Positions 5,923 through 63,015 of a stretch of DNA of 64,000 nt are shown piece by piece. The notes below the pieces were generated by a model. The model had not been told where the DNA came from. It did no database searches and saw nothing but the letters and a program-made list of their open reading frames with translations. Each line of letters starts with the position of its first letter. Within the stretch, counting starts at the first letter, position 1. The position numbers and the translations under genes were made by a program. Source of the stretch: an uncultured delta proteobacterium (GTDB lineage: Bacteria > Desulfobacterota > WTBG01); assembly GCA_963751515.1 (NCBI GenBank), contig CAVVUR010000013.1, forward strand, positions 132,829 through 196,828, given 5' to 3'.

Positions 5923-6869
5923 GCACGCCAACAGCACCCATAAGCAATCTGCAGAACCTGTTGTCACAGGGAGAATTTGTCGTCACCGCTGAATGCGGTC
6001 CACCCCGGGGGGCCGATGCCGATGCCGTTGCCAAAAAGGTCGCATACCTCAAAGGCTTCGTTGACGCGGTAAACGTGACCGATAATCAAACCGCGATCGT
6101 GCGCATGTCCAGTATCGCCGCATCCACCCACCTCCTGCAGCAGGGGGTGGAGCCGGTCATGCAGATGGTCACCCGCGACCGCAACCGCATCGCCCTGCAA
6201 TCGGATATCATGGGGGCCTATTCCCTGGGCATACGTAACATTCTCTGCCTGTCGGGCGACCACCAGAGCTTTGGCAGCCAGCCCGATGCCCTGAATGTCT
6301 TCGATATCGATTCCCTGCATCTGATCCGGGCGGTGCGCACCATGCGCGATGAGGGAAAGGACATGAGCGGCTTCGAGCTGAAAGGCGCTCCCCGCATGTT
6401 CATCGGGGCCGCCGAAAATCCCTTCGCCGATCCCTTTGAATACCGGGTTATCCGGCTGGCAAAAAAGATTGATGCCGGTGTTGACTTCATACAGACGCAG
6501 TGCATCTATAACATGGAGCGCTTCAAGGCTTGGATGAAAATGGCCAGAGAAGAGGGACTGACCGAAAAGGTGCACATCCTGGCCGGCGTGACCCCCCTGA
6601 AATCGGCGGGGATGGCGAGTTACATGGCGCACAAGGTAGCGGGGATGGACATTCCCGAGAGCCTGCTCAAACGGATCGCCGACGTGCCCAAGGAGAAGGC
6701 GTCCAGGGAAGGCATTGCCGTATGCCTTGAGACTATTGAGGAACTCAAGACCATACCCGGGGTGCGCGGCATTCATATCATGGCCATCGAGTGGGAGCAA
6801 AAAGTGGAAGAGATTGTCAGGGCCGCGGGACTGCTGCCCCGACCGGCACAGGCACTAACAGGTTGTTGA
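5919..6869 (+). CDS. metF: 5,10-methylenetetrahydrofolate reductase (acetogen-type MetF)
   Basis: 316 aa, recognisable MTHFR family sequence (VNVTDNQTAIVRMSS, DFIQTQCIYN). The last codons and the TGA stop (6867..6869) lie inside repeat element R1. Confidence 0.88.
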   Translation: MSTPTAPISNLQNLLSQGEFVVTAECGPPRGADADAVAKKVAYLKGFVDAVNVTDNQTAIVRMSSIAASTHLLQQGVEPVMQMVTRDRNRIALQSDIMGAYSLGIRNILCLSGDHQSFGSQPDALNVFDIDSLHLIRAVRTMRDEGKDMSGFELKGAPRMFIGAAENPFADPFEYRVIRLAKKIDAGVDFIQTQCIYNMERFKAWMKMAREEGLTEKVHILAGVTPLKSAGMASYMAHKVAGMDIPESLLKRIADVPKEKASREGIAVCLETIEELKTIPGVRGIHIMAIEWEQKVEEIVRAAGLLPRPAQALTGC

Positions 6870-7144
6870 AAAATTATTTTTCCTCAGGCTGTTCAAGGGC
6901 TCAAGGGGGAGGGGCTTTTTAGCCACAACAAAATTATTCTGAACCTGTAGAACGGCAGCATCTCTTTAACTTTGTCCGACAGACCCGCATGGCAACAGCC
7001 GTATCGAAGCCTCTGCAAAGCTGCCTGTCTTCGGTTTAAGTCGAAGGCACCGGGTCGTGCCGTAAGTCGACAAACAAATTGTTGTGGCGTCAAAAGCCCC
7101 TCCCCCTTGAGCCACAAATCAGATGGGTGTTTTTCAACAGCCTG
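6859..7144 (-). mobile_element. family-1 type B element R1, full copy with both outer box extensions (non-coding, MITE/REP-like)
   Basis: Box CAGGTTGTTGAAAAA (6859), second box CAGGCTGTTCAA (6885), arm GGCTCAAGGGGGAGGGGCTTTTTAGCCACAACAAAA, about 145-nt core, arm TTGTTGTGGCGTCAAAAGCCCCTCCCCCTTGAGCCAC, extension AAATCAGATGGGTG, box TTTTTCAACAGCCTG (ends 7144). Homologous to 10152, 39256, 53948 and 62654. Confidence 0.85.
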
Positions 7145-7158
7145 CCAGGGAGTTTGCG

Positions 7159-10123: not shown

Positions 10124-10151
10124 ATTTACGCGTGGTCTATAAAAATATTTG

Positions 10152-10377
10152 GTGGCCCGTGGGGCGGAGGGCCTTTTAAAGCCACAACAATTTGTTTGCG
10201 ACTTACGTCACGACCCCGTGCCTTACGTATTAAACCGGGGACAGGCAGCTTTCCAGAGACTTCGATAAAGGCTGTTGCTATGGGGTCTGTTAGAACAAAA
10301 TTACAAGGTCGCTGCCGTTCCACAAGCACCGAAGAATTTTGTTGTGGCTTTAAAAGGCCCTCCGCCCCACGGGCCAC
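10152..10377 (+). mobile_element. family-1 type B element R2, variant subfamily with concertedly changed arms
   Basis: Arms GTGGCCCGTGGGGCGGAGGGCCTTTTAAAGCCACAACAA (10152) and TTGTTGTGGCTTTAAAAGGCCCTCCGCCCCACGGGCCAC (ends 10377) are perfect inverted copies over about 38 nt. The core is homologous to the other type B copies but more diverged. Confidence 0.85.
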
Positions 10378-10421: not shown

Positions 10422-13043
10422 ATGAATCAGGATTACCGGTCCATTGATAAGATTATCGCATCGCGGGGACGGCTGCCAAGGCCGGATGTGACTGTCAGGA
10501 AAGCCGCGGAAGAGGGAGGGTGCGGCGTAACTGGCTTTATCGCCTCGATACCCGTGAGGGGACGCCACATTTTCGAGCCGTCGGTGCAGATGCACAACCG
10601 GGGTAACGGCAAGGGCGGGGGGATTGCCGCAGTGGGGTTATCGGCCCAAGACCTCGGGGTGACGCAGGAGGTGCTCGACAGCCACTACCTGCTGCAGATT
10701 GCCCTGCTTGAGCCCGGGGCGCGCCCGGACGTGGAATTGTCTTATATTGCCCCGTTTCTGGAAGTGCACAAGGCGGAGCGCATCCCCACGGTTGACGACT
10801 ACCGGGATATTGCGGGGCTGGAGGTCAGGCCCCCCGATGTGTGGCGATACTTTGTGCGGGTGAAAAAGAAGGTGCTCCAAAGATTTATTGAGGAGCACCG
10901 CCTTCACGACATGGATCCCTTAAGGGCGGAAGATGAATATATCTACCAGAATTCCTTCCTCATTAACCGGGCGTTTTATGCATCGCTGGGTGAAAAAAAG
11001 GCCTTTGTCCTTTCGCATGGCCGCAATATCATGATCCTCAAAATCGTCGGCTATGCCGAGCAGGTGGCCCAGTACTATCTGCTGGATGACTTCCGGGCCC
11101 ACGGCTGGATTGCGCATCAGCGCTATCCCACCAAGGGAAAGGTCTGGCATCCCGGCGGCGCCCACCCCTTTATCGGGATGGATGAGGCCCTGGTGCACAA
11201 CGGTGACTTTGCCAACTATCACGCGGTGAGCGAGTATCTGCGGCAGCATAACATCTTTCCCCAGTTTCTCACCGACACCGAGGTCTCGGTGCTCCTGTTT
11301 GATCTATGGAACCGCACCTTCGGTTATCCCATGGAGTATATCATCGAGGCCATAGCCCCGACCTCCGAGCATGATTTTGACCAGCTTCCCCCGGACAAGC
11401 AGCATGTGTACCGCTATATCCAGGCAGGTCACACCCAGTGCGCGCCCGACGGGCCCTGGTTTTTCATTATCGCGCGCAACAACCCCTATGAAAACTTTTT
11501 TCAACTCATCGGCATTACCGATACGGCCATGCTCCGCCCCCAGGTGTTTGCCCTGCAGGAGGGGGAGGTGCAGATAGGACTGATCTGTTCCGAGAAGCAG
11601 GCCATTGATGCCACGCTCCAGAATCTGGCCGCGGAAGACAGTCGCTTCTGCCCCATCGCCGACCGGTACTGGAACGCCCGCGGGGGCAGCTCCAGCGATG
11701 GCGGGGCCTTTCTTTTCACGGTCAGGGATGCAGGCAGGGGAGACGGAAGCAAGAAGCTGGTCTGCACCAATAAATTCGGTGAGGTGGTCAAGACCTCCTC
11801 AGAGCAGAAACATTACCGGCCGTCATCCGTGTCCGCGGTTTCCACGGACCAGCATAAGGGCTCCCAGGGCTTGCTGCGCGATGTAGGCGCAATGAACACA
11901 CTGGATTTAAAGGACTACTGCGTAAAGAACATGTCCATCTGGGATTATGCTGATCTTGAGCGGATGATTGAGTTCCTCTGCGACCACGCCCGGCAGGATG
12001 ATGAGGATAAGGCGCGCGCCATAGAAGTGCTGACCCATCTCAACGACCGCTATTTTGACACCGGCGCCAAGAAGCGCAGCTCGGTTTTGACCTTGGTGCG
12101 GGATGTGCTGAGCAGAATCTTCACCTCAACACCCAAACTTGATCACCATTCCACAAGCCGATACCGGCTGATTGACTGGACCACCAAGGGGAGCCTGCGG
12201 CCCCCGCGGCCGGGCGAGGGAATCCTGGTGCTTAATGCCCGGGACTTTCCTCCCGAGGGGGATGACTGTGACGCGCGGCTTATCTGCTCCGCCTTTGAGC
12301 TGGGCTGGCAACAATTTATCTGCTGCGGCTACCGCGGTCAGCGCTTCCTGGGCTGCGGCCTGGGCAAGGCCTCGGACGGGGTGAGGATAGATGTCTATGA
12401 CAGCTCGGGAGACTACCTGGCATCGGGCATAGACGGCCTGGAGCTGCACGTTCACGGCAATGCCCAGGACCAACTGGGCCAGATCATGAAACGGGGCAAG
12501 CTGGTGGTATATGGCGATGTGGGGCAGACATTCATGTACGGCGCAAAGGGCGGTGAGGTGTATGTGATGGGCAACGCGGCGGGCCGCCCGCTGATCAACG
12601 CCGTGGGCTATCCCCGGGTGGTGATTAACGGAACCTGCCTGGACTACCTGGCGGAGTCCTTCATGGCGGGGGACCCGTTAAACGGCGGCGGCTTTGTAAT
12701 CTTAAACGGCGTGCATTTCGATAACACCGGCAAGGTGGTGGGGCTTAAAAATCCCTATCCCGGCTCCAATCTCTTTTCGCTCGCATCAGGCGGTGCCATC
12801 TACGTGAGGGACCCCCAGCGAAAAGTTGTTGAAGAACAGCTCAACGGTGGTAGAATTACGGACATCTCCACCGCCGACTGGAGGCTGATCCGTCCCTATC
12901 TGGAAGAGAACGAGCGGCTGTTCGGGATTTCGGTAACGGCGGATCTGCTTACCGTGGGGAGAACATTGAAAAAGCCCCAGGAGGTCTACCGCAAGGTAAT
13001 GCCGGTTCCGGTTGAGGCACTGACCGAGGTGGAGGACGACTGA
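10422..13043 (+). CDS. glutamate synthase subunit: class-II glutamine amidotransferase domain fused to GXGXG (GltB domain 3) domain
   Basis: 873 aa from ATG 10422; track start 10275 lies inside R2. Ntn-type ...EEGGCGVTGFIA; RYPTKG; C-terminal YGDVGQTFMYGAKGGEVYVMGNAAGRP. Confidence 0.85.
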   Translation: MNQDYRSIDKIIASRGRLPRPDVTVRKAAEEGGCGVTGFIASIPVRGRHIFEPSVQMHNRGNGKGGGIAAVGLSAQDLGVTQEVLDSHYLLQIALLEPGARPDVELSYIAPFLEVHKAERIPTVDDYRDIAGLEVRPPDVWRYFVRVKKKVLQRFIEEHRLHDMDPLRAEDEYIYQNSFLINRAFYASLGEKKAFVLSHGRNIMILKIVGYAEQVAQYYLLDDFRAHGWIAHQRYPTKGKVWHPGGAHPFIGMDEALVHNGDFANYHAVSEYLRQHNIFPQFLTDTEVSVLLFDLWNRTFGYPMEYIIEAIAPTSEHDFDQLPPDKQHVYRYIQAGHTQCAPDGPWFFIIARNNPYENFFQLIGITDTAMLRPQVFALQEGEVQIGLICSEKQAIDATLQNLAAEDSRFCPIADRYWNARGGSSSDGGAFLFTVRDAGRGDGSKKLVCTNKFGEVVKTSSEQKHYRPSSVSAVSTDQHKGSQGLLRDVGAMNTLDLKDYCVKNMSIWDYADLERMIEFLCDHARQDDEDKARAIEVLTHLNDRYFDTGAKKRSSVLTLVRDVLSRIFTSTPKLDHHSTSRYRLIDWTTKGSLRPPRPGEGILVLNARDFPPEGDDCDARLICSAFELGWQQFICCGYRGQRFLGCGLGKASDGVRIDVYDSSGDYLASGIDGLELHVHGNAQDQLGQIMKRGKLVVYGDVGQTFMYGAKGGEVYVMGNAAGRPLINAVGYPRVVINGTCLDYLAESFMAGDPLNGGGFVILNGVHFDNTGKVVGLKNPYPGSNLFSLASGGAIYVRDPQRKVVEEQLNGGRITDISTADWRLIRPYLEENERLFGISVTADLLTVGRTLKKPQEVYRKVMPVPVEALTEVEDD

Positions 13044-13159
13044 CCGGCTGTTGAAAAAGTAGTGGCGCAGGCTGATAAAGCTTGCTGAATAGTATGTGGC
13101 GTCAAAAGCCCGTCCACTTGAGCCACGAATCAGCTGGGTGTTTTTCAAAAGCCTGCTAG
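13044..13159 (-). repeat. family-1 mini element R3 (box + filler + one arm + extension + box)
   Basis: CCGGCTGTTGAAAAA (13044) ... GTGGCGTCAAAAGCCCGTCCACTTGAGCCACGAATCAGCTGGGTGTTTTTCAAAAGCCTGCTAG (ends 13159). It starts 1 nt after the TGA of the upstream gene and ends 19 nt before the nadE ATG. Confidence 0.8.
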
Positions 13160-17638: not shown

Positions 17639-17676
17639 TCTCTTCCATCGCGAGGCGGAGCGCTGTCTCTTTCTAC

Positions 17677-17826
17677 CAGGCTGTTGAAAAACACCATCTG
17701 CGGCGTTACGCGCATCCTTGGTCATTGCGGCGTACCGGAATGTACGCCTCATTCCTCGGGATTTCGCGTGCCTTGCATCTGGACGTTTTTGAACAGCCTG
17801 GGGAAAAATACTTTTTCAACAATCTG
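17677..17826 (+). mobile_element. family-1 type A element R4 (non-coding, shares terminal box with type B) plus trailing box
   Basis: CAGGCTGTTGAAAAACACCATCTG...GGCGTAC-CGGAAT-GTACGCC...CATCTGGACGTTTTTGAACAGCCTG (to 17800), then GGGAAAAATAC-TTTTTCAACAATCTG. Homologous to 23747 and 54130. Confidence 0.8.
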
Positions 17827-17951
17827 CTCCCTGTCATCTTCCGCCGTTTAACCTCTCAGACACATCTGCGGCTGCAGCAGAGCCGCCGGTAGCGGTTTCG
17901 TGTTCACATGCTCCGGGCAAACGATTGCGAAGGTCCGGTGCGAGGTCTCCC

Positions 17952-22000: not shown

Positions 22001-22350
22001 TCATTGCCAAAAAGCTTTTTGATCTGGGTTTTACCCTGCTTGCAACCGGGGGCACGACCAGGGTCCTCACCCGTACTGGGCTGGAGGTGACGCGGGTCCT
22101 GAAAATTATCGAGGGCAGGCCCAATATCGCAGACCTGATTAAAAGCGGCGGGGTCGATTTGATTATCAATACGCCCTCGGGGACAGAGGCCTATGCCGAC
22201 CAGCTCAGCCTGAGAAGCCTTGCGGTCATGTATAATGTACCCTACATCACCACCATATCAGGCGCCTCGGCGGCGGTCAACGGCATTGAATTTCTGCAGA
22301 AGGGGAGCCTGGAGGTCCAGGCCCTACAGGATTACCATGCGCAGGGATGA
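19047..22350 (+). pseudogene. carB: carbamoyl-phosphate synthase large subunit, N-terminal 2.2 kb broken by about 19 single-base indels; C-terminal third intact
   Basis: Starts GTG 19047 ([17 protein letters not shown]). CarB-like peptides then hop through track ORFs 19157(f2), 19410(f0), 19519(f1), 19880(f2), 20115(f0), 20140(f1), 20465(f2), 20521(f1), 20863(f1), and the intact 21259..22350(f1). The translated fragments retain canonical CarB motifs ([52 protein letters not shown]). Confidence 0.85.
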
Positions 22351-22357
22351 AGGAGTG

Positions 22358-23749
22358 ATGGTATCAACTATGAGTCACCCACCGACAAATGAGATGGAAC
22401 GGCCGCTGCGGGAAGCATGCGGCATATTTGGCATCTTCGGCCATGAAGATGCCGCCCGCATTGCCTACCTCGGCCTGTATGCACTGCAGCACCGGGGGCA
22501 GGAGAGTGCGGGCATTGTGGTTTCCGACGGGAAGCATCTCACCGGCTACCGGGGTATGGGGCTGGTGCCCGAGATCTTTCACGAAGAGGGGCTGAAAAAG
22601 CTGAAAGGAGACCGGGCCATTGGCCACGTGCGCTATTCCACCACGGGCAGCTCGGAGATAAAAAATGCGCAGCCTTTTCAGGTTGAGTATTTGCGGGGAT
22701 CACTTGCCATAGCCCACAACGGCAACCTGGTCAACACGCTTGATCTCAAAAGAGCGCTGGAAAAAGCAGGGTCGATCTTTCAGTCCACCATGGACAGCGA
22801 GATCATTGTTCACCTGCTCGCCCGTTCAAAAGGCGCTGTCCTCGAAGACGCGCTGATTGAATCCCTCCCCCAGCTTAAAGGGGCCTATGCCCTGGTCCTG
22901 CTTACCCCGCATGAGATGATCGGCATCAGGGATCCTCACGGGCTGAGGCCTCTCTGCATCGGCATGCTTGACGGATCCTACGTCTTCGCCTCGGAGACCT
23001 GCGCCCTGGATCTCATCCAGGCCGACTATGTACGCGAAGTTGAGCCGGGGGAGATAGTCACCGTCGATGAAAACGGGCTGCGTTCGCTTAAGCCCTTTCC
23101 CGCGGCACGGCCTGCGCTCTGCATATTTGAGTTCATCTATTTTGCCCGGCCCGACAGCAGTGTCTTCGGCGGGGGCGTTTACCAGGCGCGCAAGCTACTG
23201 GGCAGGGAGCTGGCCCGTGAGCAGCCGGTTAATGTCGATCTGGTGATACCCATGCCAGATTCCGGCAACTGTGCCGCCCTCGGCTTTGCTGAAGCCTCAC
23301 AAATACCCTTCGAAATGGCCATGACCAGGAATCACTACGTGGGCCGCACCTTTATTCAGCCCACCCAGATCAGCAGGGACCTGGCGGTAAAGGTGAAGCT
23401 GAATCCGGTCAAGGATGTGATAAGGGACAAGCGGATCGTGGTCATCGAGGATTCCATTGTCCGGGGTACCACCAGCAAGATCAGGGTGAGAAATTTGCGG
23501 GAGGCCGGCGCGCGGGAAGTGCACATGCGGATAAGCTGCCCTCCCCACCGCCACCCCTGCTACTATGGCATTGATTTTCCCACCCGCAAGGAACTCATTG
23601 CCTCCTCCCACTCGGTGGACGAGATTGCCCGTTTCATGGGGCTGGACAGCCTGGGATACCTCAGCCCGGAAGGCATGATGAAAGCCATGCCCTTCGACCG
23701 GGGGAAATTTTGCCTCTCCTGCTTTGACGGCCGGTATCCGGTAATCTAG
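22358..23749 (+). CDS. purF: amidophosphoribosyltransferase
   Basis: About 463 aa from ATG 22358 (AAGGAG upstream; ATG 22370 is an alternative). Ntn Cys in CGIFGIFG; PRTase loop VVIEDSIVRGTT. The TAG stop at 23747..23749 is the first triplet of repeat R5. Confidence 0.9.
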   Translation: MVSTMSHPPTNEMERPLREACGIFGIFGHEDAARIAYLGLYALQHRGQESAGIVVSDGKHLTGYRGMGLVPEIFHEEGLKKLKGDRAIGHVRYSTTGSSEIKNAQPFQVEYLRGSLAIAHNGNLVNTLDLKRALEKAGSIFQSTMDSEIIVHLLARSKGAVLEDALIESLPQLKGAYALVLLTPHEMIGIRDPHGLRPLCIGMLDGSYVFASETCALDLIQADYVREVEPGEIVTVDENGLRSLKPFPAARPALCIFEFIYFARPDSSVFGGGVYQARKLLGRELAREQPVNVDLVIPMPDSGNCAALGFAEASQIPFEMAMTRNHYVGRTFIQPTQISRDLAVKVKLNPVKDVIRDKRIVVIEDSIVRGTTSKIRVRNLREAGAREVHMRISCPPHRHPCYYGIDFPTRKELIASSHSVDEIARFMGLDSLGYLSPEGMMKAMPFDRGKFCLSCFDGRYPVI

Positions 23750-23872
23750 CAGGCTGCTGAAAAACACCCATCTGCGGCGTACTCACATGTACGCCTCATT
23801 CCTCAGAATTTCGCGAGCCTTGCATCTGGATGTTTTTGAACAGCCTGCCAAAAGCTGATTTTTCAACAGCTG
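23747..23872 (+). mobile_element. family-1 type A element R5 (shorter variant) plus trailing box
   Basis: TAGCAGGCTGCTGAAAAACACCCATCTGCGGCGTAC-TCACAT-GTACGCC...CATCTGGATGTTTTTGAACAGCCTG, then CCAAAAGCTGA-TTTTTCAACAGCTG. It lacks about 26 nt present in R4 between the direct repeats GCGGCGT(T)AC. Confidence 0.8.
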
Positions 23873-23930
23873 TTAGAATCACTACCTGGGTTGCTTGAAG
23901 GATAACCCTGCCAGAGAAAGGAGATAATGC

Positions 23931-29251: not shown

Positions 29252-29290
29252 GCGTGTTCCTCCGAGCAGGCACGCTCTGAATCAAAGCAC

Positions 29291-29362
29291 TAGCAGGTTG
29301 TTGAAAAACAACCATCTGATTTGTGGCGCAAGGGGGAGGGGCTTTTGACGCCACAACAATGT
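29291..29362 (+). repeat. family-1 solo unit R6 (TAG-box + extension + one arm)
   Basis: TAGCAGGTTGTTGAAAAACAACCATCTGATTTGTGGCGCAAGGGGGAGGGGCTTTTGACGCCACAACAATG, between the mutS stop (29408) and the mutL start (29251). Confidence 0.8.
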
Positions 29363-29407
29363 TTCTTCCAGCGCTCCATCACTCCAATACCCCAGCGTCT
29401 ACAAACC

Positions 29408-32126: not shown

Positions 32127-32243
32127 AGTATTATGCCTGAGGAAACTGCTTTTACAACAACCCTTGATCAATCTTTCTACTTTATTCCGAACGAACTCAC
32201 GCAGCAGGTGGGATTAATTGCACCCTATAATGCAATATATGGT

Positions 32244-34900: not shown

Positions 34901-34933
34901 ACAGTATCAGGGTATACAGCGACGGAATGTTGA

Positions 34934-35005
34934 CAGGCTGTTGAAATAATATTTTTCCTTAGGCCGTTCAAAAGCCTGCGCCACTTCTTTTTCAACAACC
35001 TGCTA
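34934..35005. repeat. family-1 boxes-only remnant R7
   Basis: CAGGCTGTTGAAA-taatatttttcctt-AGGCCGTTCAAAAGCCTGCGCCACTTC-TTTTTCAACAACCTGCTA. The final CTA (35003..35005) is the TAG stop of lpxK on the minus strand. Confidence 0.7.
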
Positions 35006-36109
35006 ATGATCGCGCCGGGAAATGTGTTTAAAGAGGGCATCCATAAAAGCCGGTTCGTCATCCATCTCTAGCATAATATCAAGCACGAGTATAGGCAAAT
35101 GATTGAATCCCGCTCCGTCCATCTTGCAGCCGTCCTTTGCGGTGGTGATAATGCAGTCGACGCGGGGGAGGAAAGCGGCGAGCCGTTCGGCATCCCGGGC
35201 AGTGTAGCGGTGGTGATCGGGCAGGATCATCTCTTCGGCAATCCTGATGCCATGGGTGCGCAGGAGGTGGGTAAAGGAGCCGGGGTTACCGATGCCGGCG
35301 AGGGCAAGCGCGTTTTTGCCCGCGAGACCTTTGATATCTCCCGCGGGGGATCCGTCAAGGGTGCTGAGCCCCTTGATGGCGTAGCGGGCGGAGAAAATTG
35401 AAGCGTGCGGTCTTTGCGCGGAGATGATCCCCTCTGCGGGTTGTCCTTGGGTATCCTCAGTTTTTTTTGTGAGTATGATGATATCGGCCGCCTGCAGGGC
35501 ACTGAGCGGTTCCCGCAGGATGCCCCGCGGTATGAGGCAGCCGTTGCCGAACCCGTAGTGCCGGTCCACCAGAACTATATCCGCGTCCCTTTTCAGCCGC
35601 AGGTGCTGGAACCCGTCATCAAGCAGGATGACGTCCGGGGAATACAGCGAAACCGCCAGGAGGCCCGAACGCACCCGGTCGCGCCCGATAATTACCGGCG
35701 TGCCGGGAAGGGCTTTTGCAAGCATCGCCGGTTCATCGCCGGCTTCCCGGGCGGTGAGCAGCATATGCTTCCCGTCGGATACCACCGCGACCGCTTCTTT
35801 GCTGTGCGACCGGTATCCGCGGCTGAGCACCGCTGCCTTGAGCCCGCGCTTCCGGAAGAGCTGCGCCAGATAGATAACCGTGGGTGTTTTGCCCGTTCCC
35901 CCCACGGTTATATTTCCGACGCTGACCACCCGGCAGGGAAGATCACGGGAGGCACACATCCCCGTGCGATACAGCATCCGTCGCGCACGCATGACAAGTT
36001 TATAGAGGAGGGAGAGAAGATAGATCGGGAAGAGCACAATGCGCCTGAGCAGGCTTTCCCGCTTTGTGCCCGAATACAGCAATTCCTGGATGAGTAAGCG
36101 TGGGTTCAT
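35003..36109 (-). CDS. lpxK: tetraacyldisaccharide 4'-kinase
   Basis: About 368 aa from ATG 36109 (MNPRLLIQELLY...). P-loop GNITVGGTGKTP; DDGFQH. Confidence 0.88.
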   Translation of the reverse strand: MNPRLLIQELLYSGTKRESLLRRIVLFPIYLLSLLYKLVMRARRMLYRTGMCASRDLPCRVVSVGNITVGGTGKTPTVIYLAQLFRKRGLKAAVLSRGYRSHSKEAVAVVSDGKHMLLTAREAGDEPAMLAKALPGTPVIIGRDRVRSGLLAVSLYSPDVILLDDGFQHLRLKRDADIVLVDRHYGFGNGCLIPRGILREPLSALQAADIIILTKKTEDTQGQPAEGIISAQRPHASIFSARYAIKGLSTLDGSPAGDIKGLAGKNALALAGIGNPGSFTHLLRTHGIRIAEEMILPDHHRYTARDAERLAAFLPRVDCIITTAKDGCKMDGAGFNHLPILVLDIMLEMDDEPAFMDALFKHISRRDH

Positions 36110-39220: not shown

Positions 39221-39255
39221 CCCTCTTCCTTTAAGAGATTTGTCATAATGTATTC

Positions 39256-39474
39256 GTGGCTCAAGGGGAGGGGCTTTTGACGCCACAACAATTTGTCTTG
39301 AGGCTTACGGCACGACCCGTTGCCTTACGACTTAAACCGCAGACAGGCAGCATTACAGAGGCTTCGATACGGGCTGTTGCCATGCGGGTCTGTCGGACAA
39401 AGTTAGAGAGATGCTGCCGTTCTACCGGCTCCGAATAATTTTGTTGTGGCGTCAAAAGCCCCTCCCCTTGAGCC
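39256..39474 (+). mobile_element. family-1 type B element R8, cleanest full copy (arms + core, no outer boxes)
   Basis: GTGGCTCAAGGGGAGGGGCTTTTGACGCCACAACAATTTG - core - AATTTTGTTGTGGCGTCAAAAGCCCCTCCCCTTGAGCC, between lpxB (end 39507) and msbA (start 39220). Confidence 0.88.
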
Positions 39475-42863: not shown

Positions 42864-42893
42864 TTCTTCTCTCCAACTCGGTGTTGTAGCTTC

Positions 42894-42983
42894 TAGCAGG
42901 TTGTTAAAAAAGTGTTTTCCTCAGGCTGTTCTAAAGGCTCAAAAGCCCCTTCCCCTTGAGCCACAAATCAGATGGTTAAAAAT
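42894..42983 (-). repeat. family-1 internally deleted element R9 (outer boxes + fused arms, core missing)
   Basis: TAGCAGGTTGTTAAAAAAGTGTTTTCCTCAGGCTGTTCTAAAGGCTCAAAAGCCCCTTCCCCTTGAGCCACAAATCAGATGGTTAAAAA. It is collinear with R1 except for loss of everything between GGCTCAA and AAAGCCCC. It ends 1 nt before the lpxD stop codon. Confidence 0.8.
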
Positions 42984-44646: not shown

Positions 44647-44712
44647 CAGGCTGTTCAAAAGCCCCTCCCCCTTGAGCCACAAATCAGATAGGTGTTTTTC
44701 AAAAGCCTGCTA
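44647..44712 (-). repeat. family-1 internally deleted mini element R10
   Basis: CAGGCTGTTCAAAAGCCCCTCCCCCTTGAGCCACAAATCAGATAGGTGTTTTTCAAAAGCCTGCTA. The terminal CTA (44710..44712) is the TAG stop of bamA. Confidence 0.8.
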
Positions 44713-47373
44713 AAACATGGTTCCCATAGTAAAGTGAATCTGGCTGCTGTCCTCATCCTCTTTGGGAGAGAGGTTCAGACCCCACTCCACCCGCAGGGGG
44801 CCGAAGGGAGACTGCCAGCGTATGCCGGCCCCCACGCTCTTCCGCATATCCGAGAAATAGCTTTCGCTCTGCCGGTAAGCGTTCCCGGTATCAAAAAAGA
44901 TGTCCCCCCGGATGCCCGCGCTCTTGACGATGGGAAAGATATATTCAAAGTTGAAAAAGAGCTCCTTTTCTCCTCCCACCACGTCGTAGTCGTTGGGATC
45001 GGTTATGAAACGGTTGTATTCGCTTCGCTTGACCCGGGGGCCGACGGACCTTTCTTCAAAACCGCGCAGGCTGTCCAGCCCGCCCAGAAAGAATTTCTCA
45101 AAAATGGGTATGTCGTCCCCGCCGTATCCGAATATGTAGCCGATGGTCCCCCGGATCATGAAGGCCGTATCCCAGGGGAGGGGAAAAAACCTGCTGCTGC
45201 TGGCCTCGAGGGTGACGAAGCTGCTGTCTCCCCCCGCTCCGGCGAACTTCCCGGTCAGGGAGTTGAGGGTTCCCCTGCGGGGGGTAAAGCGGTTGTCCAG
45301 GGTGTTGCGGATAATCCCCGCGTTGAAGGCGCCGACGGAGGTGCTGCCCTCCTGCTCCAGAATTTCAACGGCAGCTTCATCGTCCACGTTTGATACATCG
45401 ACGGTTTCGTACTCGTAGCCCAGGTTAAACTTGGTGTACTCACCGACGGGATGCCCGATGCGAACGCCCCCGCCCGTGCTCTCACTGTCAAAGTCCTCGT
45501 ACCAGCGCTCCATGTTGTAAAGGTCAAAGCCAGCGCTCCACCGGGTGTCGCGGAACCAAGGCTCGGTGAAGGAGAACATGAACCGGTTGGTGCCACCCAG
45601 CTGGGCTGAGATGTCAAAGCGCTGCCCCTTGCCCCGGAAGTTTTCCTGGGAAAACTGGATCATGCCCACCAGGCTGTCCACGGAGCTGTAGCCCGCGCCG
45701 AAGCTGATGGACCCGGTCGGCTTTTCCTCCACCTCCACATTGAGATTGACCTTGCTGCTGCTGCTTCCCGCGGAAGTGGTGAGATTGGTCTTCTTGAAGT
45801 AGCCCAGATTTTCAAGCTCCTGCTGGCTCCGCTTGATTTTGCTGTTGCTGAACAGATCCCCCTCCGCAACCCTTACCTCGCGCCGGATCACCTTGTCCCG
45901 GGTGCGGTTGTTGCCGGTGATGTTGATTTTTTCGAAATAGACCTTTTCTCCCTGGGCAATGTCATAGGTGATGTCGACGGTTTTCTGCTCGTCATGAATC
46001 GCGGTCAGGGGGGAGATGTCCACGTTGGCGTATCCCTTGTCCGCATAGAGCTCCCGGAGGTTCACCATGTCCTTGTTGAGATAATTGCTGCTGAACACCT
46101 TTCCCTCGATGGCTAAAAGGTCCTTGGCGAGCGATTCGCGCGGGAGGATGAGGTCCCCGGTCAGGTCAACCGTGCCGATGTTGAAGCGGTCGCCTTCCTC
46201 AACGGGTATGGTGATGAAGATATCCTTGCCCTCGTGGGTGACGGTGGGATTGCTCACCGTGGCCTTGATGTAGCCCTGGTAATAATAATAGGCCATGAGC
46301 TTTTCCACGTCCTTTTGCAGCGCCTCCTCCTTGAATATGCCCGCGCTGGTAATGAAGGAGAGGAGGTTTTTCTGGCGGGTTTCCATGATGCCCCTGAGCT
46401 GCTTGCTCTTGATCTGGGTATTGCCCACAAAGGATATTTTCTTAATCTTGGAGATTTCATTTTCCCGGATGTAGTAATCCACCGAGGTTTCACCCTCGCC
46501 GGAGGACGTGAGTTTGTACTCGATCTCGGCGCTCAGGTAGCCCTTGTCCGTGTACAGCTTTCTGATGCCCTCCGCGTCTTTCCGCACCTGGTTCTGATCC
46601 AGCACCCTCCCCAGCTTGACGCCCAGCGTCTTCTGTATGTCCGGCGTCTTGATCTGCTTGTTGCCCTGGATCTTGATCTGGCTTACCACCGGACGCTCCA
46701 CCACCATGAAGGTGACCAGCTTTCCTCCGGGTACATCCTCGCTTTCAATTTGCACGTCGCTGAAATAGCCCATCCCGTACACCTGGCGCAGATCCTCCTG
46801 GAGGGCATCGGGAGCATAGAGGTCGCCTTCCCTGCTCTTGAGCACCAGCATGATGGCGTCCTTTTCTATGTAGCGATTGCCCCGCACGGCAATGCCGGCA
46901 ATGACCTCCTTGTCGAGTATGGTGAGATCCAGCTGCCGCGCGAGCTGGGCGATGCGGGCGGGAAGAACCTCCAGGCTCTCGCACTGCACGTAGACGTGCC
47001 GGTTCTCTTTCTGCCCGGAGGCGTCGATGAGGAGCGCGTCGACGCTGGCGGCGGCGCCGATCTTGGTGAAGCTGCCGGTGATGGCGTACTCCGCCCCCAC
47101 CGCGCGCGAGAGCTCGCGCACCAGGCGCTCGTCCATCGGTCCCCTGTCCGGGGTCAGCGCCGATTTCAGGGTGTGCTTGTCGACAGTCACGATGTCGGCG
47201 CCCTCCTCCATGCGGGTGAGGAGCATGTCGGCTATGCCCTGGCCGAGGTAGTCGAGCTTTTCCCGGCTGTGAATCGCGAAGGGAAACACTGCAACCGTTC
47301 GCGGCGCATTGCCCCAGGCGCTGCCTGACAGCAGGCAGCAGGCCACCACCAGGAGGAGTTTTTTGGTCATCAT
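44710..47373 (-). CDS. bamA: outer membrane protein assembly factor BamA
   Basis: 887 aa. Signal peptide, an extra roughly 170-aa N-terminal region, POTRA repeats, and a C-terminal beta-barrel ending ...IHFTMGTMF. Confidence 0.9.
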   Translation of the reverse strand: MMTKKLLLVVACCLLSGSAWGNAPRTVAVFPFAIHSREKLDYLGQGIADMLLTRMEEGADIVTVDKHTLKSALTPDRGPMDERLVRELSRAVGAEYAITGSFTKIGAAASVDALLIDASGQKENRHVYVQCESLEVLPARIAQLARQLDLTILDKEVIAGIAVRGNRYIEKDAIMLVLKSREGDLYAPDALQEDLRQVYGMGYFSDVQIESEDVPGGKLVTFMVVERPVVSQIKIQGNKQIKTPDIQKTLGVKLGRVLDQNQVRKDAEGIRKLYTDKGYLSAEIEYKLTSSGEGETSVDYYIRENEISKIKKISFVGNTQIKSKQLRGIMETRQKNLLSFITSAGIFKEEALQKDVEKLMAYYYYQGYIKATVSNPTVTHEGKDIFITIPVEEGDRFNIGTVDLTGDLILPRESLAKDLLAIEGKVFSSNYLNKDMVNLRELYADKGYANVDISPLTAIHDEQKTVDITYDIAQGEKVYFEKINITGNNRTRDKVIRREVRVAEGDLFSNSKIKRSQQELENLGYFKKTNLTTSAGSSSSKVNLNVEVEEKPTGSISFGAGYSSVDSLVGMIQFSQENFRGKGQRFDISAQLGGTNRFMFSFTEPWFRDTRWSAGFDLYNMERWYEDFDSESTGGGVRIGHPVGEYTKFNLGYEYETVDVSNVDDEAAVEILEQEGSTSVGAFNAGIIRNTLDNRFTPRRGTLNSLTGKFAGAGGDSSFVTLEASSSRFFPLPWDTAFMIRGTIGYIFGYGGDDIPIFEKFFLGGLDSLRGFEERSVGPRVKRSEYNRFITDPNDYDVVGGEKELFFNFEYIFPIVKSAGIRGDIFFDTGNAYRQSESYFSDMRKSVGAGIRWQSPFGPLRVEWGLNLSPKEDEDSSQIHFTMGTMF

Positions 47374-53874: not shown

Positions 53875-53947
53875 GGTGTCCTCTTACAAACATCGGTCAT
53901 GACCCTCCCGGGGCGCATGTGTCCCGACAGGGATTGGGCAAGAACTC

Positions 53948-54371
53948 TAGCAGGTTGTTGAAATACACCCATCTGATTTGTGGCTCAAGGGGGAGGGGCT
54001 TTTGACGCCACAACAATGTGTCTTAACGCTTACGGCACGACCCGGTGCCTTCGACGTGAGCCGAAAGCAGGCAGCTTTGCAGAGGCTTCGATCGGCTGGT
54101 GCCGGACGGGTCTGTCTGACAAAGTTAGACAGGCTGTTGAAAAATCCCCAGCTGCTGCGTTACGCTCATCCTTCGTCATTGCAGCGTACCTGAATGTACG
54201 CCTCATTCCTCAGGATTTCGCGTGCCTTGCATCTGGTGGTTTTTGAACAGCCTGAAAACCAGCAAGAAAGTTGCTGCCGTTCTACAGGCTCGGAATAATT
54301 TTGTTGTGGCTAAAAAGCCCCTCCCCCTTGAGCCTTTGACAGCCTGAGAAAAATACTTTTTCAACAACCTG
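53948..54371 (+). mobile_element. family-1 type B element R11, full copy with outer boxes, interrupted by a nested type A element
   Basis: TAGCAGGTTGTTGAAATACACCCATCTGATTTGTGGCTCAAGGGGGAGGGGCTTTTGACGCCACAACAATG - core up to GACAAAGTTAGA | type A | AAAACCAGCAAGAAAGTTGCTGCCGTTCTACAGG - arm - TTTGACAGCCTG-agaaaaatac-TTTTTCAACAACCTG. Confidence 0.85.
54130..54254 (+). mobile_element. family-1 type A element nested inside R11
   Basis: CAGGCTGTTGAAAAATCCCCAGCTGCTGCGTTACGCTCATCCTTCGTCATTGCAGCGTAC-CTGAAT-GTACGCC...CATCTGGTGGTTTTTGAACAGCCTG splits the type B core at a position that is contiguous in the other four copies. Confidence 0.85.
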
Positions 54372-54595
54372 GTAGAAAACAATGCAGGTTTCATACCAGT
54401 TCGTGCCGGCGGCAACATGGAGAAAAGGTGAACACCTTGTAACCGTTTTTTGCACGGGGAAAAAGTGCTGCGTGAGGGCAATGCTGGTCATTACCGGCAG
54501 TGTCAGCTTCAGCCACGAATCTATCACGCTGATATGTGCTTCCATCGGAATTTTAATTATTTTCCATACCGTTCTGTATCCTCCAGCAATAGTGA

Positions 54596-54776: not shown

Positions 54777-54860
54777 GCGAGAGTGGCGGAATCTGGCAGA
54801 CGCACTGGATTTAGGATCCAGCGGGAAACCGTGGGGGTTCAATTCCCCCCTCTCGCACCA
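54777..54860 (+). tRNA. tRNA-Leu (anticodon UAG)
   Basis: GCGAGAG/CTCTCGC acceptor stem. Anticodon stem CTGGA/TCCAG with loop TTTAGGA. Long variable arm CGGGAAACCG. T arm GGGGG-TTCAATT-CCCCC. Encoded CCA end. Confidence 0.93.
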
Positions 54861-61618: not shown

Positions 61619-62656
61619 ATGATGAAGAGAATCGGCATTCTTACCGGCGGCGGCGACTGTCCCGGGCTCAATGCGGTCATACGGGCGGTGGTGAAACGGG
61701 CCATTGATACCTACAAGTTTGAGGTGATCGGCATCAGGGAAGGGTGGGCCGGCCTGATCAAAGGGCAGGTGGAGCCGCTTACCCTTTTTTCCGTCACCGG
61801 AATACTTCCCCGCGGGGGGACCATCCTGGGCACCTCCCGGACCAACCCCTTTAAGGCCGAGGAAACCCTGCAGAAAATGCTCAACAACATCAAGCGCTAT
61901 GGCATAGAGGGCTTCATCTGCGTGGGCGGCGAGGATACCCTTGGCGTTGCAAGCCGGCTGCATGAGATGGGCATTCCGGTGGTGGGTATTCCTAAAACCA
62001 TTGACAATGACCTTCCCTGCACCGATTATACCTTCGGGTTCGATACGGCAGTCAGCATCGTTACCGAGGCGATTGACCGGCTGCACACCACGGCGGAATC
62101 CCATCACCGGGTCATGGTGGTTGAAGTCATGGGGAGGCACACCGGGTGGATTGCCACCGTCGCCGGCATTGCCGGCGGAGCCGATTGCATCCTCATTCCC
62201 GAAGTGCCGTTCAGGCTTGAAGAGGTGGCCGAATTGCTCAAGCAGCGCCGCAAACGCGGCAAGACCTTCAGCATCATTGTGGTGGCGGAGGGGGTGGAGC
62301 TCAATCACGACAGCGGCGTGGTGGTGCAGGACGAAAAGACCGATGAATTCGGCCACGCGCTCCTGGGGGGCATAGGCAATATCATAGCCAGGAAGCTCGA
62401 AGACCTGACGGGCATGGAGACTAGGGTTACCAACCTGGGATATGTGCAGAGGGGAGGCACGCCCACTGCGTTCGACCGGGTGCTGGCCACGCGCTTCGGG
62501 GTGAAGGCGGTGGATATGCTGGCAAACAAGGAATTCGGCAAAATGGCCTGTCTGCGGGGTACTAGCATTGAAGCCATTGACCTGAAGGAAGTGGCCTCCG
62601 GCAATAAGAAAATCAACCCGGACTTGTATAAGGTTGCCGAGCTTTTCTTCGGCTAG
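61619..62656 (+). CDS. pfk: 6-phosphofructokinase (ATP- or PPi-dependent, not resolved)
   Basis: 345 aa. GILTGGGDCPGLNA, VGGEDTL, PKTIDNDL, VMGRHTGW. The TAG stop 62654..62656 is the first triplet of repeat R12. Confidence 0.88.
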   Translation: MMKRIGILTGGGDCPGLNAVIRAVVKRAIDTYKFEVIGIREGWAGLIKGQVEPLTLFSVTGILPRGGTILGTSRTNPFKAEETLQKMLNNIKRYGIEGFICVGGEDTLGVASRLHEMGIPVVGIPKTIDNDLPCTDYTFGFDTAVSIVTEAIDRLHTTAESHHRVMVVEVMGRHTGWIATVAGIAGGADCILIPEVPFRLEEVAELLKQRRKRGKTFSIIVVAEGVELNHDSGVVVQDEKTDEFGHALLGGIGNIIARKLEDLTGMETRVTNLGYVQRGGTPTAFDRVLATRFGVKAVDMLANKEFGKMACLRGTSIEAIDLKEVASGNKKINPDLYKVAELFFG

Positions 62657-62904
62657 CAGGCTGTTATAAAAACCATCTGATTCGTGGCGCAAAGGGAGGC
62701 TATTTTGACGCCACAACAATGTGTCTTTACGCTTACGGCACGACCCGGTGTCTTACGACTTAAACCGCAGACAGGCAGCTTTGCAGGGGCTTGAATACGG
62801 GCTGTTGCCCTACGGGCCTGTCGGACAAAATTAGAAAGTCGCTGCCGTTCTACAGGCTCCGAATAATTTTGTTGTGGCTAAAAAGCCCTTCCCCCTTGAG
62901 CCAC
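62654..62904 (+). mobile_element. family-1 type B element R12, full copy with left outer box
   Basis: TAGCAGGCTGTTATAAAAACCATCTGATTCGTGGCGCAAAGGGAGGCTATTTTGACGCCACAACAATG - core - AATTTTGTTGTGGCTAAAAAGCCCTTCCCCCTTGAGCCAC. Confidence 0.88.
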
Positions 62905-63015
62905 ATACTACTTTTATGCTTTTATCTTGACTTTTTCGCTACCTGTCGATAATATGCACCCCGCCGGTGAGTTAACCGGCGATGTTGGTTTATGGTGAAG
63001 AGAAGGAAATCGCAA

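What the first reader, a model, noticed from the sequence alone, without database searches (positions are those of the whole stretch)
23747..23872. Element termini coincide with stop codons of flanking genes ((C)TAGCAGGYTGTTGAAAAA end)
**The conserved terminus.** The outer 15-nt box CAGGYTGTTGAAAAA is usually preceded by TAG.

**Cases where that TAG is the gene stop.**
- purF (23747..23749)
- pfk (62654..62656)
- lpxK (35003..35005, minus strand)
- bamA (44710..44712, minus strand)

**Other cases touching a stop codon.**
- metF reads into the element and stops at the TGA inside GTTGTTGAA (6867..6869), so its last residues are element-encoded.
- The amidotransferase/GXGXG glutamate synthase gene (10422..13043) stops at TGA 13041..13043, and the box starts at 13044.
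- The other end of R9 stops 1 nt before the lpxD stop codon.

**Copies not at a stop.** R6 (29291), R9 (42894) and R11 (53948) still begin (C)TAGCAGG.

**Interpretation.** TAG is therefore either part of the element or its target (TAG/CTAG/TA). Either the element prefers stop codons or TA-containing sites at gene 3' ends, or insertions replaced native 3' ends and stops. Both would be notable for an element this abundant in essential operons.
Basis: seen in the sequence. Interest (0 to 1): 0.65.

Follow-up and report, generated by a model that had tools for sequence, protein, structure and literature searches.

The report
IS5-type MITEs sitting on stop codons
The repeat is a miniature, transposase-less relative of IS5-family insertion sequences that inserts at CTAG/CTAA/TTAG and duplicates those four bases, so it often lands on a gene's TAG or TAA stop codon and restores it: a neat but expected result of known IS5 behaviour.

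Summary
In the window, five of the seven box termini that face a gene's 3' end abut its stop codon (purF, pfk, lpxK and bamA at TAG; the GXGXG gene at TGA). metF stops at the TGA inside the box.

The 15-nt box CAGGYTGTTGAAAAA is the terminal inverted repeat of an IS5-family insertion sequence. A full-length 1362-bp copy in another genome carries the same ends, CTAG on both sides, and an IS5-family DDE transposase. The window copies (63-421 nt) have no transposase, so they are MITEs.

The (C)TAG is not part of the element. It is the 4-bp target-site duplication (consensus Py-T-A-Pu), shown by non-palindromic direct repeats (18 direct against 2 inverted).

Orthologous sites without the box element keep a stop at the same codon for purF, bamA, the GXGXG gene and pfk. 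So the elements went into native stops, and the duplication restored them. metF and lpxD did get altered 3' ends.

CTAG is scarce here: 15 in 64 kb, and every non-coding copy is a stop codon or an element flank. In 117 independent metagenomic copies, 27% of termini abut a long ORF's stop. Availability of YTAR sites near stops explains most of this (35% expected, 56% observed).

It is a new member of a known kind, of modest interest.

The parts
23746..23749 (+). Left copy of the 4-bp target-site duplication (CTAG). Bases 23747-23749 are the purF stop codon TAG.
   Evidence: The same codon is a stop in orthologues without the box element: L124 has TAG, and a contig in metagenome run X6 has TAG followed by 28 unrelated nt.
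23750..23764 (+). Left terminal inverted repeat, CAGGCTGCTGAAAAA (1 mismatch to the box).
   Evidence: The same box ends a full-length IS5-family element at L092:870-2231.
23765..23832 (+). Body of the MITE (CACCCATCTGCGGCG... end). It has a 24-nt internal deletion relative to the orthologous copies in L120, L121 and L122.
   Evidence: The RNA fold of 23746-23876 gives -47.6 kcal/mol, z = -5.4.
23833..23847 (-). Inner box CAGGCTGTTCAAAAA, a second repeat-like site just inside the right end.
   Evidence: The same two-box end occurs in copies from other phyla.
23859..23872 (-). Right outer terminal inverted repeat, CAGCTGTTGAAAAA (one base missing).
23873..23876 (+). Right copy of the target-site duplication, now TTAG (1 change from CTAG).
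   Evidence: TTAG is also found here in relatives L120-L122.
6855..7148 (.). Composite copy: box element carrying the second MITE 'core B' (6898-7115). Flanks are CTAA and CCAG. metF reads 4 codons (LTGC) into the repeat and stops at TGA 6867-6869.
13040..13159 (.). Short copy after the GXGXG glutamate-synthase-like gene. Flanks are CTGA and CTAG. The relative L120 has perfect CTAG/CTAG flanks and a TAG stop.
17673..17830 (.). Canonical 150-nt copy (17677-17826), 38 nt after the glyA stop. Flanks are CTAC and CTCC.
29290..29367 (.). Truncated copy between mutL and mutS. Left flank CTAG; the right end is lost.
34930..35006 (.). 69-nt copy (34934-35002). Its right flank CTAA contains the lpxK stop (TAG on the minus strand, 35003-35005).
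42893..42983 (.). Truncated composite copy between fabZ and lpxD. Left flank CTAG. The right end is degenerate and sits beside the lpxD TGA (42984-42986).
44647..44713 (.). Internally deleted 63-nt copy. Its right flank CTAA contains the bamA stop (TAG on the minus strand, 44710-44712).
   Evidence: L125 and L126 have no element and the same TAG stop.
53947..54375 (.). Composite copy (53951-54371) holding core B and, nested in it, a 125-nt box element (54130-54254). Flanks are CTAG and GTAG; the relative L132 has CTAG/CTAG.
62653..62905 (.). Composite copy after pfk. The left flank CTAG contains the pfk stop (62654-62656). The right outer repeat is lost here but present in strain L134 (flank TTAG).
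10150..10377 (.). Second MITE family ('core B') on its own, without the box.
39252..39474 (.). Second MITE family ('core B') on its own, between lpxB and msbA.

Best explanation
The elements are MITEs: non-autonomous derivatives of an IS5-family insertion sequence from an ISAzs10-like clade.

**Mechanism.** Their 15-nt ends, CAGGYTGTTGAAAAA, are the repeats that a DDE transposase of that family recognises. The transposase would be supplied in trans. It cuts a 4-bp target with staggered nicks (consensus Py-T-A-Pu; CTAG, CTAA and TTAG are favoured), and gap repair duplicates those four bases on both sides.

**Why stop codons.** A TAG or TAA stop preceded by a pyrimidine is itself such a target. 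In compact operons of a genome depleted in CTAG/CTAA/TTAG, it is often the only target between two genes. Insertion there costs nothing, because the left copy of the duplication restores the stop. Such insertions survive, while insertions inside genes, promoters or ribosome-binding sites are lost.

**When the target is just off the stop.** The element itself closes two of the three reading frames within about 11 nt: TAG in the flank, or the TGA in TGTTGAA. This explains the short element-encoded tail of metF.

**Shown.**
- The repeat identity with a full-length IS.
- The 4-bp direct duplication.
- The sites without the box element, with stops at the same codon.
- The site statistics.

**Inferred.**
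- That a transposase in this genome moved these copies.
- That purifying selection, not active targeting of stops, gives the remaining enrichment.
For: **The box is an IS5-family end.**
- L092:870-2231 is a 1362-bp element, CTAG|CAGGCTGTTGAAAAA...TTTTTCAACAGCCTG|CTAG, with one 365-aa ORF.
- The ORF matches DUF772 and DDE_Tnp_1. It also matches NF033581 'IS5 family transposase' at 240.8 bits against a cut-off of 140.
- Four more TA-flanked boxes run into homologous transposase genes: L094, L095, L098 and L100.
- The closest named element, ISAzs10 (57% identical transposase), ends TTAG|CAGGCCGCGGAAAAAGG...CCTTTTTCCGCGTCCTG|TTAG.

**The flank is a 4-bp direct duplication.**
- Genome scan: CTAG/CTAG x8, CTAA/CTAA x6, ATAG/ATAG, CTAT/CTAT, ATAA/ATAA, TTAA/TTAA.
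- Metagenome scan, 58 copies of canonical length (about 151 nt): 18 identical non-palindromic direct pairs against 2 inverted.
- Relatives of the window: L120 has CTAG/CTAG; L132 has CTAG/CTAG and CTAA/CTAA.
- Flank conservation stops at -4.

**Orthologous sites without the box element keep a stop at the same codon.**
- purF: L124, and the X6 contig that skips 23750-23917.
- bamA: L125, L126 and L127.
- GXGXG gene: L128 has TAA, L120 has TAG, the window has TGA.
- pfk: the C-terminus ...FFG aligns end to end with 7 distant homologues. Strain L132 has TAA at the same codon, followed by a degenerate core-B-like repeat but no box.

**Target scarcity in the window.**
- 15 CTAG in 64 kb: 6 coding, 5 overlapping stops, and 4 intergenic that all flank elements.
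- Observed/expected: CTAG 0.35, CTAA 0.36, TTAG 0.45.

**Generality.**
- Of 117 unique metagenomic termini, 83 have N-TA-N flanks and 32 abut the stop of an ORF of at least 100 codons (or at least 50 codons if the ORF runs to the contig edge). Two more have an ORF reading in and stopping at +11.
- Of YTAR sites 0-60 nt from such stops, 35% are the stop itself, against 56% observed.

**Published precedent.**
- IS5 duplicates Py-T-A-Pu, most often CTAG (PMC5493358).
- MITEPsy1, derived from an IS5-family element, duplicates CTAG or YTAA (PMC3189936).
Against: - No transposase gene lies in the window, in the 10 kb beyond its right end (from the near-identical-strain contig L131), or in the relatives' loci. 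An autonomous partner in this genome is therefore unproven.
- Most window copies have imperfect duplications (for example CTAG/TTAG, CTAA/CCAG) or have lost one end. They are old, and their duplications are inferred partly from relatives.
- Stop-codon use exceeds simple site availability. The excess is 1.6-fold against the local null (p = 0.0025). It is 5-10-fold against a cruder 'all non-coding YTAR' null.
- I attribute that excess to selection and to a preference among tetramers, but I did not show this.
- Gene calls for the statistics are crude ORF-based calls.
Confidence: 0.87

Rival explanations
1. CTAG/TAG is the outermost part of the element. The element brings its own stop codon and replaces the native 3' ends of genes.
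For: - The palindromic CTAG on both sides (L012, L049, L092) could be read as an extension of the inverted repeat.
- metF ends 4 residues inside the element, and lpxD is 4 codons shorter than in L127.
- The element closes two of three incoming frames within about 11 nt.
Against: - Non-palindromic flanks are direct repeats, not inverted: 18 against 2. Examples are CTAA/CTAA, ATAG/ATAG and CTAT/CTAT.
- Flank tetramers vary between copies: CTAA 23, TTAG 20, CTAG 14, CTAT 7 and others.
- Sites without the box element already have a stop at the same codon for purF, bamA, the GXGXG gene and pfk.
Confidence: 0.04
2. The element is an IS630/Tc1-mariner-type MITE that targets CTAG and duplicates only the central TA.
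For: - C-TA-[element]-TA-G fits the CTAG-flanked copies equally well.
- From memory: IS630 and IS870 insert at CTAG with a TA duplication.
Against: - Full-length copies with this repeat encode DUF772 and DDE_Tnp_1, an NF033581 IS5-family transposase, not an IS630-type one.
- CTAA/CTAA, TTAG/TTAG and ATAG/ATAG flanks need all four bases to be duplicated.
Confidence: 0.03
3. The position at stop codons is kept, or even targeted, because the element works there. Examples would be an mRNA-stabilising or attenuating hairpin between operon genes (as with REP/BIME), or transposase targeting of 3' ends.
For: - The RNA hairpin is strong (-47.6 kcal/mol, z = -5.4).
- The purF copy is retained in relatives with 92-96% identical purF.
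- Stop codons are used 1.6-fold more than local YTAR availability predicts (p = 0.0025).
- Copies sit in essential operons (lpx/bamA, purF-serA).
- Element sequence is present in a metatranscriptome.
Against: - Hairpins follow automatically from inverted repeats.
- Copies decay freely: internal deletions and lost ends in the window, and spacers of 168-361 nt among strains whose pfk proteins are identical.
- Close relatives do without the element at the same junctions (L125 and L126 for bamA; the X6 contig for purF).
- A different MITE occupies the same purF CTAG in L123.
- No terminator or promoter consensus is found.
- Many copies lie between divergent genes.
Confidence: 0.08

Closest known systems
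IS5 and the IS5 family (E. coli IS5 as type)
   Same: - DDE transposase of the same NCBIfam family (NF033581).
- 4-bp target duplication with consensus Py-T-A-Pu, CTAG commonest (PMC5493358).
- Short terminal inverted repeats.
   Different: - The repeat sequence differs.
- The window copies are 63-421 nt long and encode no transposase.
ISAzs10 (IS5-like element of Azospirillum sp. B510, plasmid pAB510f)
   Same: - Its transposase is 57% identical to that of the full-length box element L092.
- Its ends, CAGGCCGCGGAAAAAGG, share CAGG...GAAAAA with the box.
- Its flanks are TTAG/TTAG.
   Different: - 3-4 of the 15 repeat positions differ.
- It is autonomous, and from an alphaproteobacterial plasmid.
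MITEPsy1 of Pseudomonas syringae pv. phaseolicola (PMC3189936)
   Same: - An IS5-family-derived MITE.
- It makes a 4-nt duplication of CTAG or YTAA.
- It has been shown to transpose.
- One copy sits in the 3' end of an effector gene.
   Different: - Different repeat (GGAAGGTCTGAAAAAGCC), 100 nt long, only about 6 copies.
- No link with stop codons was reported.
- No two-box end and no nesting.
Chunjie MITE of Geobacter uraniireducens (as summarised in PMC3184786)
   Same: A MITE of a related bacterial group, found inside an operon without breaking it.
   Different: 21-bp repeats and 9-bp direct repeats, so a different transposase family and no TA-centred target.
IS630/IS870 and Correia elements (recalled from memory, not tested here)
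   Same: - TA-centred targets; CTAG for IS630 and IS870.
- IS870 is reported to use the target's TAG as a stop codon.
   Different: - 2-bp TA duplication and an IS630-type (or unknown) transposase.
- Here the duplication is 4 bp and the transposase is IS5-type.
REP/BIME elements
   Same: Abundant, hairpin-forming repeats between operon genes.
   Different: REPs have no terminal inverted repeats with target duplications, and they go with RAYT (Y1) transposases. Neither applies here.

Membership tests
IS5-family-derived MITE | Terminal inverted repeats that match those of an autonomous IS5-family element. | tested here: met
   L092:870-2231 has the exact box at both ends and an NF033581 IS5-family transposase. 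Four further box-plus-transposase loci were found. ISAzs10 has related ends.
IS5-family-derived MITE | 4-bp direct target-site duplication, consensus Py-T-A-Pu. | tested here: met
   Identical non-palindromic flanks are direct in 18 cases and inverted in 2. Flank tetramers: CTAA 23, TTAG 20, CTAG 14 of 117.
IS5-family-derived MITE | Small size and no transposase coding capacity. | tested here: met
   Window copies are 63-421 nt. tblastn with the L092 transposase finds nothing in the window or in the relatives' loci. The canonical copy is about 151 nt.
IS5-family-derived MITE | Presence/absence polymorphism at orthologous sites (evidence of past mobility). | tested here: met
   - bamA: L125 and L126 have no element.
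- purF: the X6 contig has no element; L123 carries a different MITE.
- GXGXG gene: L128 has no element.
- pfk: strains differ in what follows the stop.
IS5-family-derived MITE | An autonomous partner with matching repeats in the same genome. | not testable with these tools
   Only the 64-kb window and about 10 kb beyond its right end (from the near-identical-strain contig L131) could be read.
IS5-family-derived MITE | Transposition catalysed in trans by the family's transposase. | not testable with these tools
   This needs an experiment. The precedent is MITEPsy1 (PMC3189936).
IS630/Tc1-mariner-type MITE | 2-bp TA duplication and an IS630-type transposase in full-length copies. | tested here: not met
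   The duplication is 4 bp and the transposase is IS5-type.
REP/BIME (RAYT-associated) | Short imperfect palindromes without target duplications, associated with a Y1 transposase. | tested here: not met
   The elements have 15-nt terminal inverted repeats and target duplications. The associated gene is a DDE transposase.
Described structured RNA family (Rfam) | A match to an Rfam covariance model at the gathering score. | tested here: not met
   The only hit in the window is a tRNA at 54777-54857.

The most novel reading that the evidence does not exclude
The excess of stop-codon insertions over what YTAR availability predicts may be real targeting or retention. It is 1.6-fold against the local null and 5-10-fold against all non-coding sites.

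One reading is that this IS5 clade senses something at gene 3' ends. Another is that the hairpin-forming copies are kept as operon punctuation.

A related idea is that the strong depletion of CTAG, CTAA and TTAG in this genome is partly a response to saturation by such elements. Every non-coding CTAG in the window is either a stop codon or an element flank.
Probability: 0.1. Interest if true: 0.6.

Novelty: new member of a known kind. Interest (0 to 1): 0.3.

Why it matters
**For annotation.** The result explains why an abundant repeat sits exactly at the ends of essential genes without harming them. It also warns that the last residues of some proteins (metF here) are read from a transposon end.

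**As a general rule.** Any transposon whose target contains TAG or TAA and that duplicates it can settle on stop codons for free. In genomes poor in CTAG these become its main safe landing sites.

**Spread of the repeat.** The same 15-nt repeat is found in many bacterial phyla, so the rule is probably widespread.

**Limits.** No new mechanism is involved.

Tried and rejected
- **Genome-collection scan with the bare 15-mer.** A true whole-genome census was therefore impossible. The scan still gave the cross-phylum flank bias and the full-length IS.
- **First background model for the metagenome loci.** It used a GC3-GC2 coding filter that fails on genomes of about 50% GC, so I discarded it. I replaced it with a longest-ORF model and a local null.
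- **TA-only duplication (IS630-like).** My first reading of the termini; rejected on the direct 4-bp repeats and the transposase type.
- **lpxK native stop.** The only outgroup (L127, 53% identical) ends 3 residues after the last aligned position, against 7 in the window. Inconclusive.
- **Rfam and promoter/terminator scans.** Nothing on the elements.
- **Literature.** Searches for the box sequence and for ISAzs10 found no paper. MITE reviews do not mention stop codons.
- **RNA runs.** Too few words were held to test co-transcription across the junction.
- **Exact origin of the inner box and of the nested copy's flanks (54130-54254).** Could not be resolved.
Full report
**Observation.** The region 23747-23872 reads ...GTA ATC TAG | CAGGCTGCTGAAAAA ... 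TTTTTGAACAGCCTG CCAAAAGCTGA TTTTTCAACAGCTG | TTAG AATC.... The box CAGGYTGTTGAAAAA occurs 20 times in the window with at most two mismatches, against 0.2 expected. NCBIfam confirms the flanking genes as purF, serA, pfk, lpxK, lpxD, fabZ, bamA, msbA, lpxB, a methylenetetrahydrofolate reductase (metF) and a GXGXG glutamate-synthase-like gene. Seven box termini face the 3' end of a gene. Five abut the stop codon: purF, pfk, lpxK and bamA at TAG, and the GXGXG gene at TGA. One has the stop inside the box (metF, TGA 6867-6869), and one lies 38 nt away (glyA). In an alignment of 16 outer termini, conservation outside the box covers exactly four bases, consensus C-T-A-G, and is at background from -5 outward.

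**What the box is.** A scan of species-representative genomes with the bare 15-mer gave 126 matches in 119 loci from many phyla. The three bases before the box were TAG in 38, TAA in 13 and TAT in 6. That is far from random, so the TA-flanked box is a widespread terminus.

- One locus, L092 (an Ignavibacteriota genome), has two inverted boxes 1362 bp apart, with CTAG on both sides and a single 365-aa ORF between them.
- That ORF matches Pfam DUF772 and DDE_Tnp_1. It also matches NCBIfam NF033581 'IS5 family transposase' at 240.8 bits against a cut-off of 140.
- Four more TA-flanked boxes (L094, L095, L098, L100) lead directly into homologous transposase genes.
- The closest named element in the plasmid collection is ISAzs10 of Azospirillum sp. 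B510 (57% identity). Its ends read TTAG|CAGGCCGCGGAAAAAGG ... CCTTTTTCCGCGTCCTG|TTAG.

The box is therefore the terminal inverted repeat of a clade of IS5-family insertion sequences. The window copies are 63-421 nt and encode no transposase, so they are MITEs.

**TAG is target, not element.**

- Paired repeats in the genome-scan loci are flanked by direct 4-bp repeats: CTAG/CTAG eight times, CTAA/CTAA six times, and also ATAG/ATAG, CTAT/CTAT, ATAA/ATAA and TTAA/TTAA.
- A second, unbiased scan of metagenome contigs used a longer pattern that does not include the flank. It gave 117 termini with unique flanks: CTAA 23, TTAG 20, CTAG 14, CTAT 7, ATAG 5, TTAA 5, GTAG 4.
- Among 58 copies of canonical length, identical non-palindromic flanks were direct in 18 cases and inverted in 2. 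Copies with perfect duplications cluster at about 151 nt.
- Relatives of the window organism show perfect duplications where the window copy has drifted: CTAG/CTAG at the GXGXG gene in L120, and CTAG/CTAG and CTAA/CTAA in L132.

This is the hallmark of IS5, which duplicates Py-T-A-Pu and most often CTAG (PMC5493358). It is also seen in the IS5-derived, experimentally mobile MITEPsy1, which duplicates CTAG or YTAA (PMC3189936).

**Orthologous sites without the box element.**

- *purF.* Relatives with 92-96% identical purF (L120-L122) carry the same element with a TAA stop. A relative at 88% (L123) has a different MITE in the same ATC-TAG site. A relative at 77% (L124) has no element and a TAG stop at the same codon. 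A contig in freshwater metagenome run X6 joins 23749 to 23918 through 28 unrelated bases. This is a site without the element, and TAG is still the purF stop.
- *bamA.* L125 and L126 lack the element and read ATG TTT TAG at the same codon. L127 has TAA there.
- *GXGXG gene.* The element-free L128 has GAC GAC TAA. L120 has TAG and the window has TGA, so a stop has been kept at this codon.
- *pfk.* The C-terminus ...FFG aligns end to end with seven distant homologues. Strain L132 has TAA at the same codon, followed by a degenerate core-B-like repeat but no box.
- *Exceptions.* Element-free metF orthologues end ...PRPE(Q/K)S, whereas the window and its closest relatives read four further residues (LTGC) from the repeat. 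lpxD overlaps the fabZ start in L127 but ends four codons earlier, beside the inserted repeats, in the window and in L125.
- *lpxK.* Could not be decided.

**Why stop codons.** CTAG occurs only 15 times in the 64 kb. Six are inside genes and five overlap stop codons. The four intergenic ones all flank elements. CTAG, CTAA and TTAG are the most depleted of the tetramers tested (observed/expected 0.35-0.45). In the reconstructed pre-insertion operon spacers, the stop codon is often the only Py-T-A-Pu site (my reading of the sequences). Because the four bases are duplicated, the gene keeps its stop, so the insertion is harmless.

In the metagenome set, 32 of the 117 termini (27%) abut the stop of an ORF of at least 100 codons (or at least 50 codons if the ORF runs to the contig edge), and two more have an ORF reading in and stopping at the TGA of the repeat. 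Among Py-T-A-Pu sites lying 0-60 nt from such stops, 35% are the stop itself. Among termini in that range, 56% are (odds ratio 2.3, p = 0.0025). Site availability therefore explains most of the effect. The rest I attribute, by inference only, to selection against insertions near ribosome-binding sites and promoters, and to preferences among tetramers. A cruder null that uses all non-coding sites gives a 5-10-fold excess, but it rests on rough gene calls.

**Anatomy and surroundings.**

- The canonical unit is about 151 nt. It has an outer repeat, a CACCCATCTG... end, a body that folds into a long hairpin, an inner box CAGGCTGTTCAAAAA, about 10 nt of linker, and the second outer repeat.
- The two-box end recurs in copies from Binatia, Nitrospirota and Syntrophaceae genomes.
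- Several window copies are composites that carry a second MITE family ('core B', about 225 nt). Core B also occurs alone at 10150-10377 and 39252-39474.
- One composite has a further box element nested inside it (54130-54254).
- Strains whose pfk proteins are identical differ in what follows the stop (spacers of 168-361 nt), so the copies decay and rearrange quickly.
- In wetland and freshwater metagenomes, the word depth over the element is 100-1000 times that of the flanking genes. Contig homology breaks at 23745-23747, the edge of the duplication.
- No Rfam family, promoter consensus or terminator consensus matches the elements.

**Verdict.** This is an IS5-family MITE with the family's known CTAG/Py-T-A-Pu target and 4-bp duplication. 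It sits on native stop codons, and the duplication restores them. The family itself appears undescribed: no paper holds the box sequence. The quantified link to stop codons is a tidy general point, but no new mechanism is needed. The source organism is an uncultured member of the Thermodesulfobacteriota (deltaproteobacterial lineage), judging from the names of its nearest homologues, and it is seen in wetland and freshwater sediment metagenomes.

Noticed in passing
window 10150-10377, 39252-39474; nested at 6898-7115, 53978-54335, 62680-62905: A second MITE family ('core B', about 225 nt, own inverted repeat ATTCGTGGCTCAAGGGGGAGGGGCTTTTGACGCCACAACAA). It occurs alone and inside box elements, so composites were propagated by the outer repeats. 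In strain L133 it has collapsed to its two ends.
   Followed up: partly
window 54130-54254: A 125-nt box element is nested inside core B, which itself lies inside a box element: three levels of nesting. Its flanks (TAGA / AAGA?) and its missing outer right repeat could not be explained cleanly.
   Followed up: partly
window 23833-23847, 17786-17800, 54240-54254; L006, L031, L060, L093, L096, L115: One end of the canonical MITE has a second, inner box (CAGGCTGTTCAAAAA) about 10 nt inside the outer repeat. The same asymmetric architecture appears in genomes of several phyla. It may be a second transposase-binding site.
   Followed up: partly
L123:5560-5830 (orthologue of window 23747): A different MITE (inverted repeat TGTAGTGCGTC..., flanks CTAG / CTGG) occupies exactly the same purF CTAG stop site in a relative. 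This CTAG is therefore a hot spot for more than one element family.
   Followed up: partly
window 17925-22350 and 29408-32171: carA/carB and mutS are broken into several ORFs by frameshifts. The relative L120 shows similar breaks. These are probably indel errors of long-read assemblies, or possibly pseudogenes.
   Followed up: no
whole window: TAG is the commonest stop codon among my 42 curated gene calls (18 TAG, 14 TGA, 10 TAA), which is unusual for bacteria. Only 4 of the 18 are next to elements.
   Followed up: no
whole window: CTAG, CTAA and TTAG are the most depleted of 18 tetramers tested (observed/expected 0.35, 0.36, 0.45), while TTAA is enriched (1.37). These three are the element's favoured targets.
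   Followed up: partly
L004, L007, L018, L054, L084, L104, L106 (Pokkaliibacter, Pseudomonas); L034, L041, L076 (Nitrospira); L049 (Chelatococcus); L098 (Bradyrhizobium): The identical 15-nt repeat, with TA-centred flanks, ends unrelated MITE bodies in many phyla. The transposase clade and its repeat are unusually widespread and conserved.
   Followed up: partly
window 6855-6869 and proteins P0241-P0243: The last four residues of metF (LTGC) are encoded by the transposon repeat. They are conserved in relatives with 94-96% identical metF (RTGC in one), so the extension is real and not an assembly error.
   Followed up: yes
window 23742-23877 in runs X1, X6, X7, X25: Element word depth is 100-1000 times that of the flanks in wetland and freshwater metagenomes. 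Element-like contigs are also present in a sediment metatranscriptome.
   Followed up: partly
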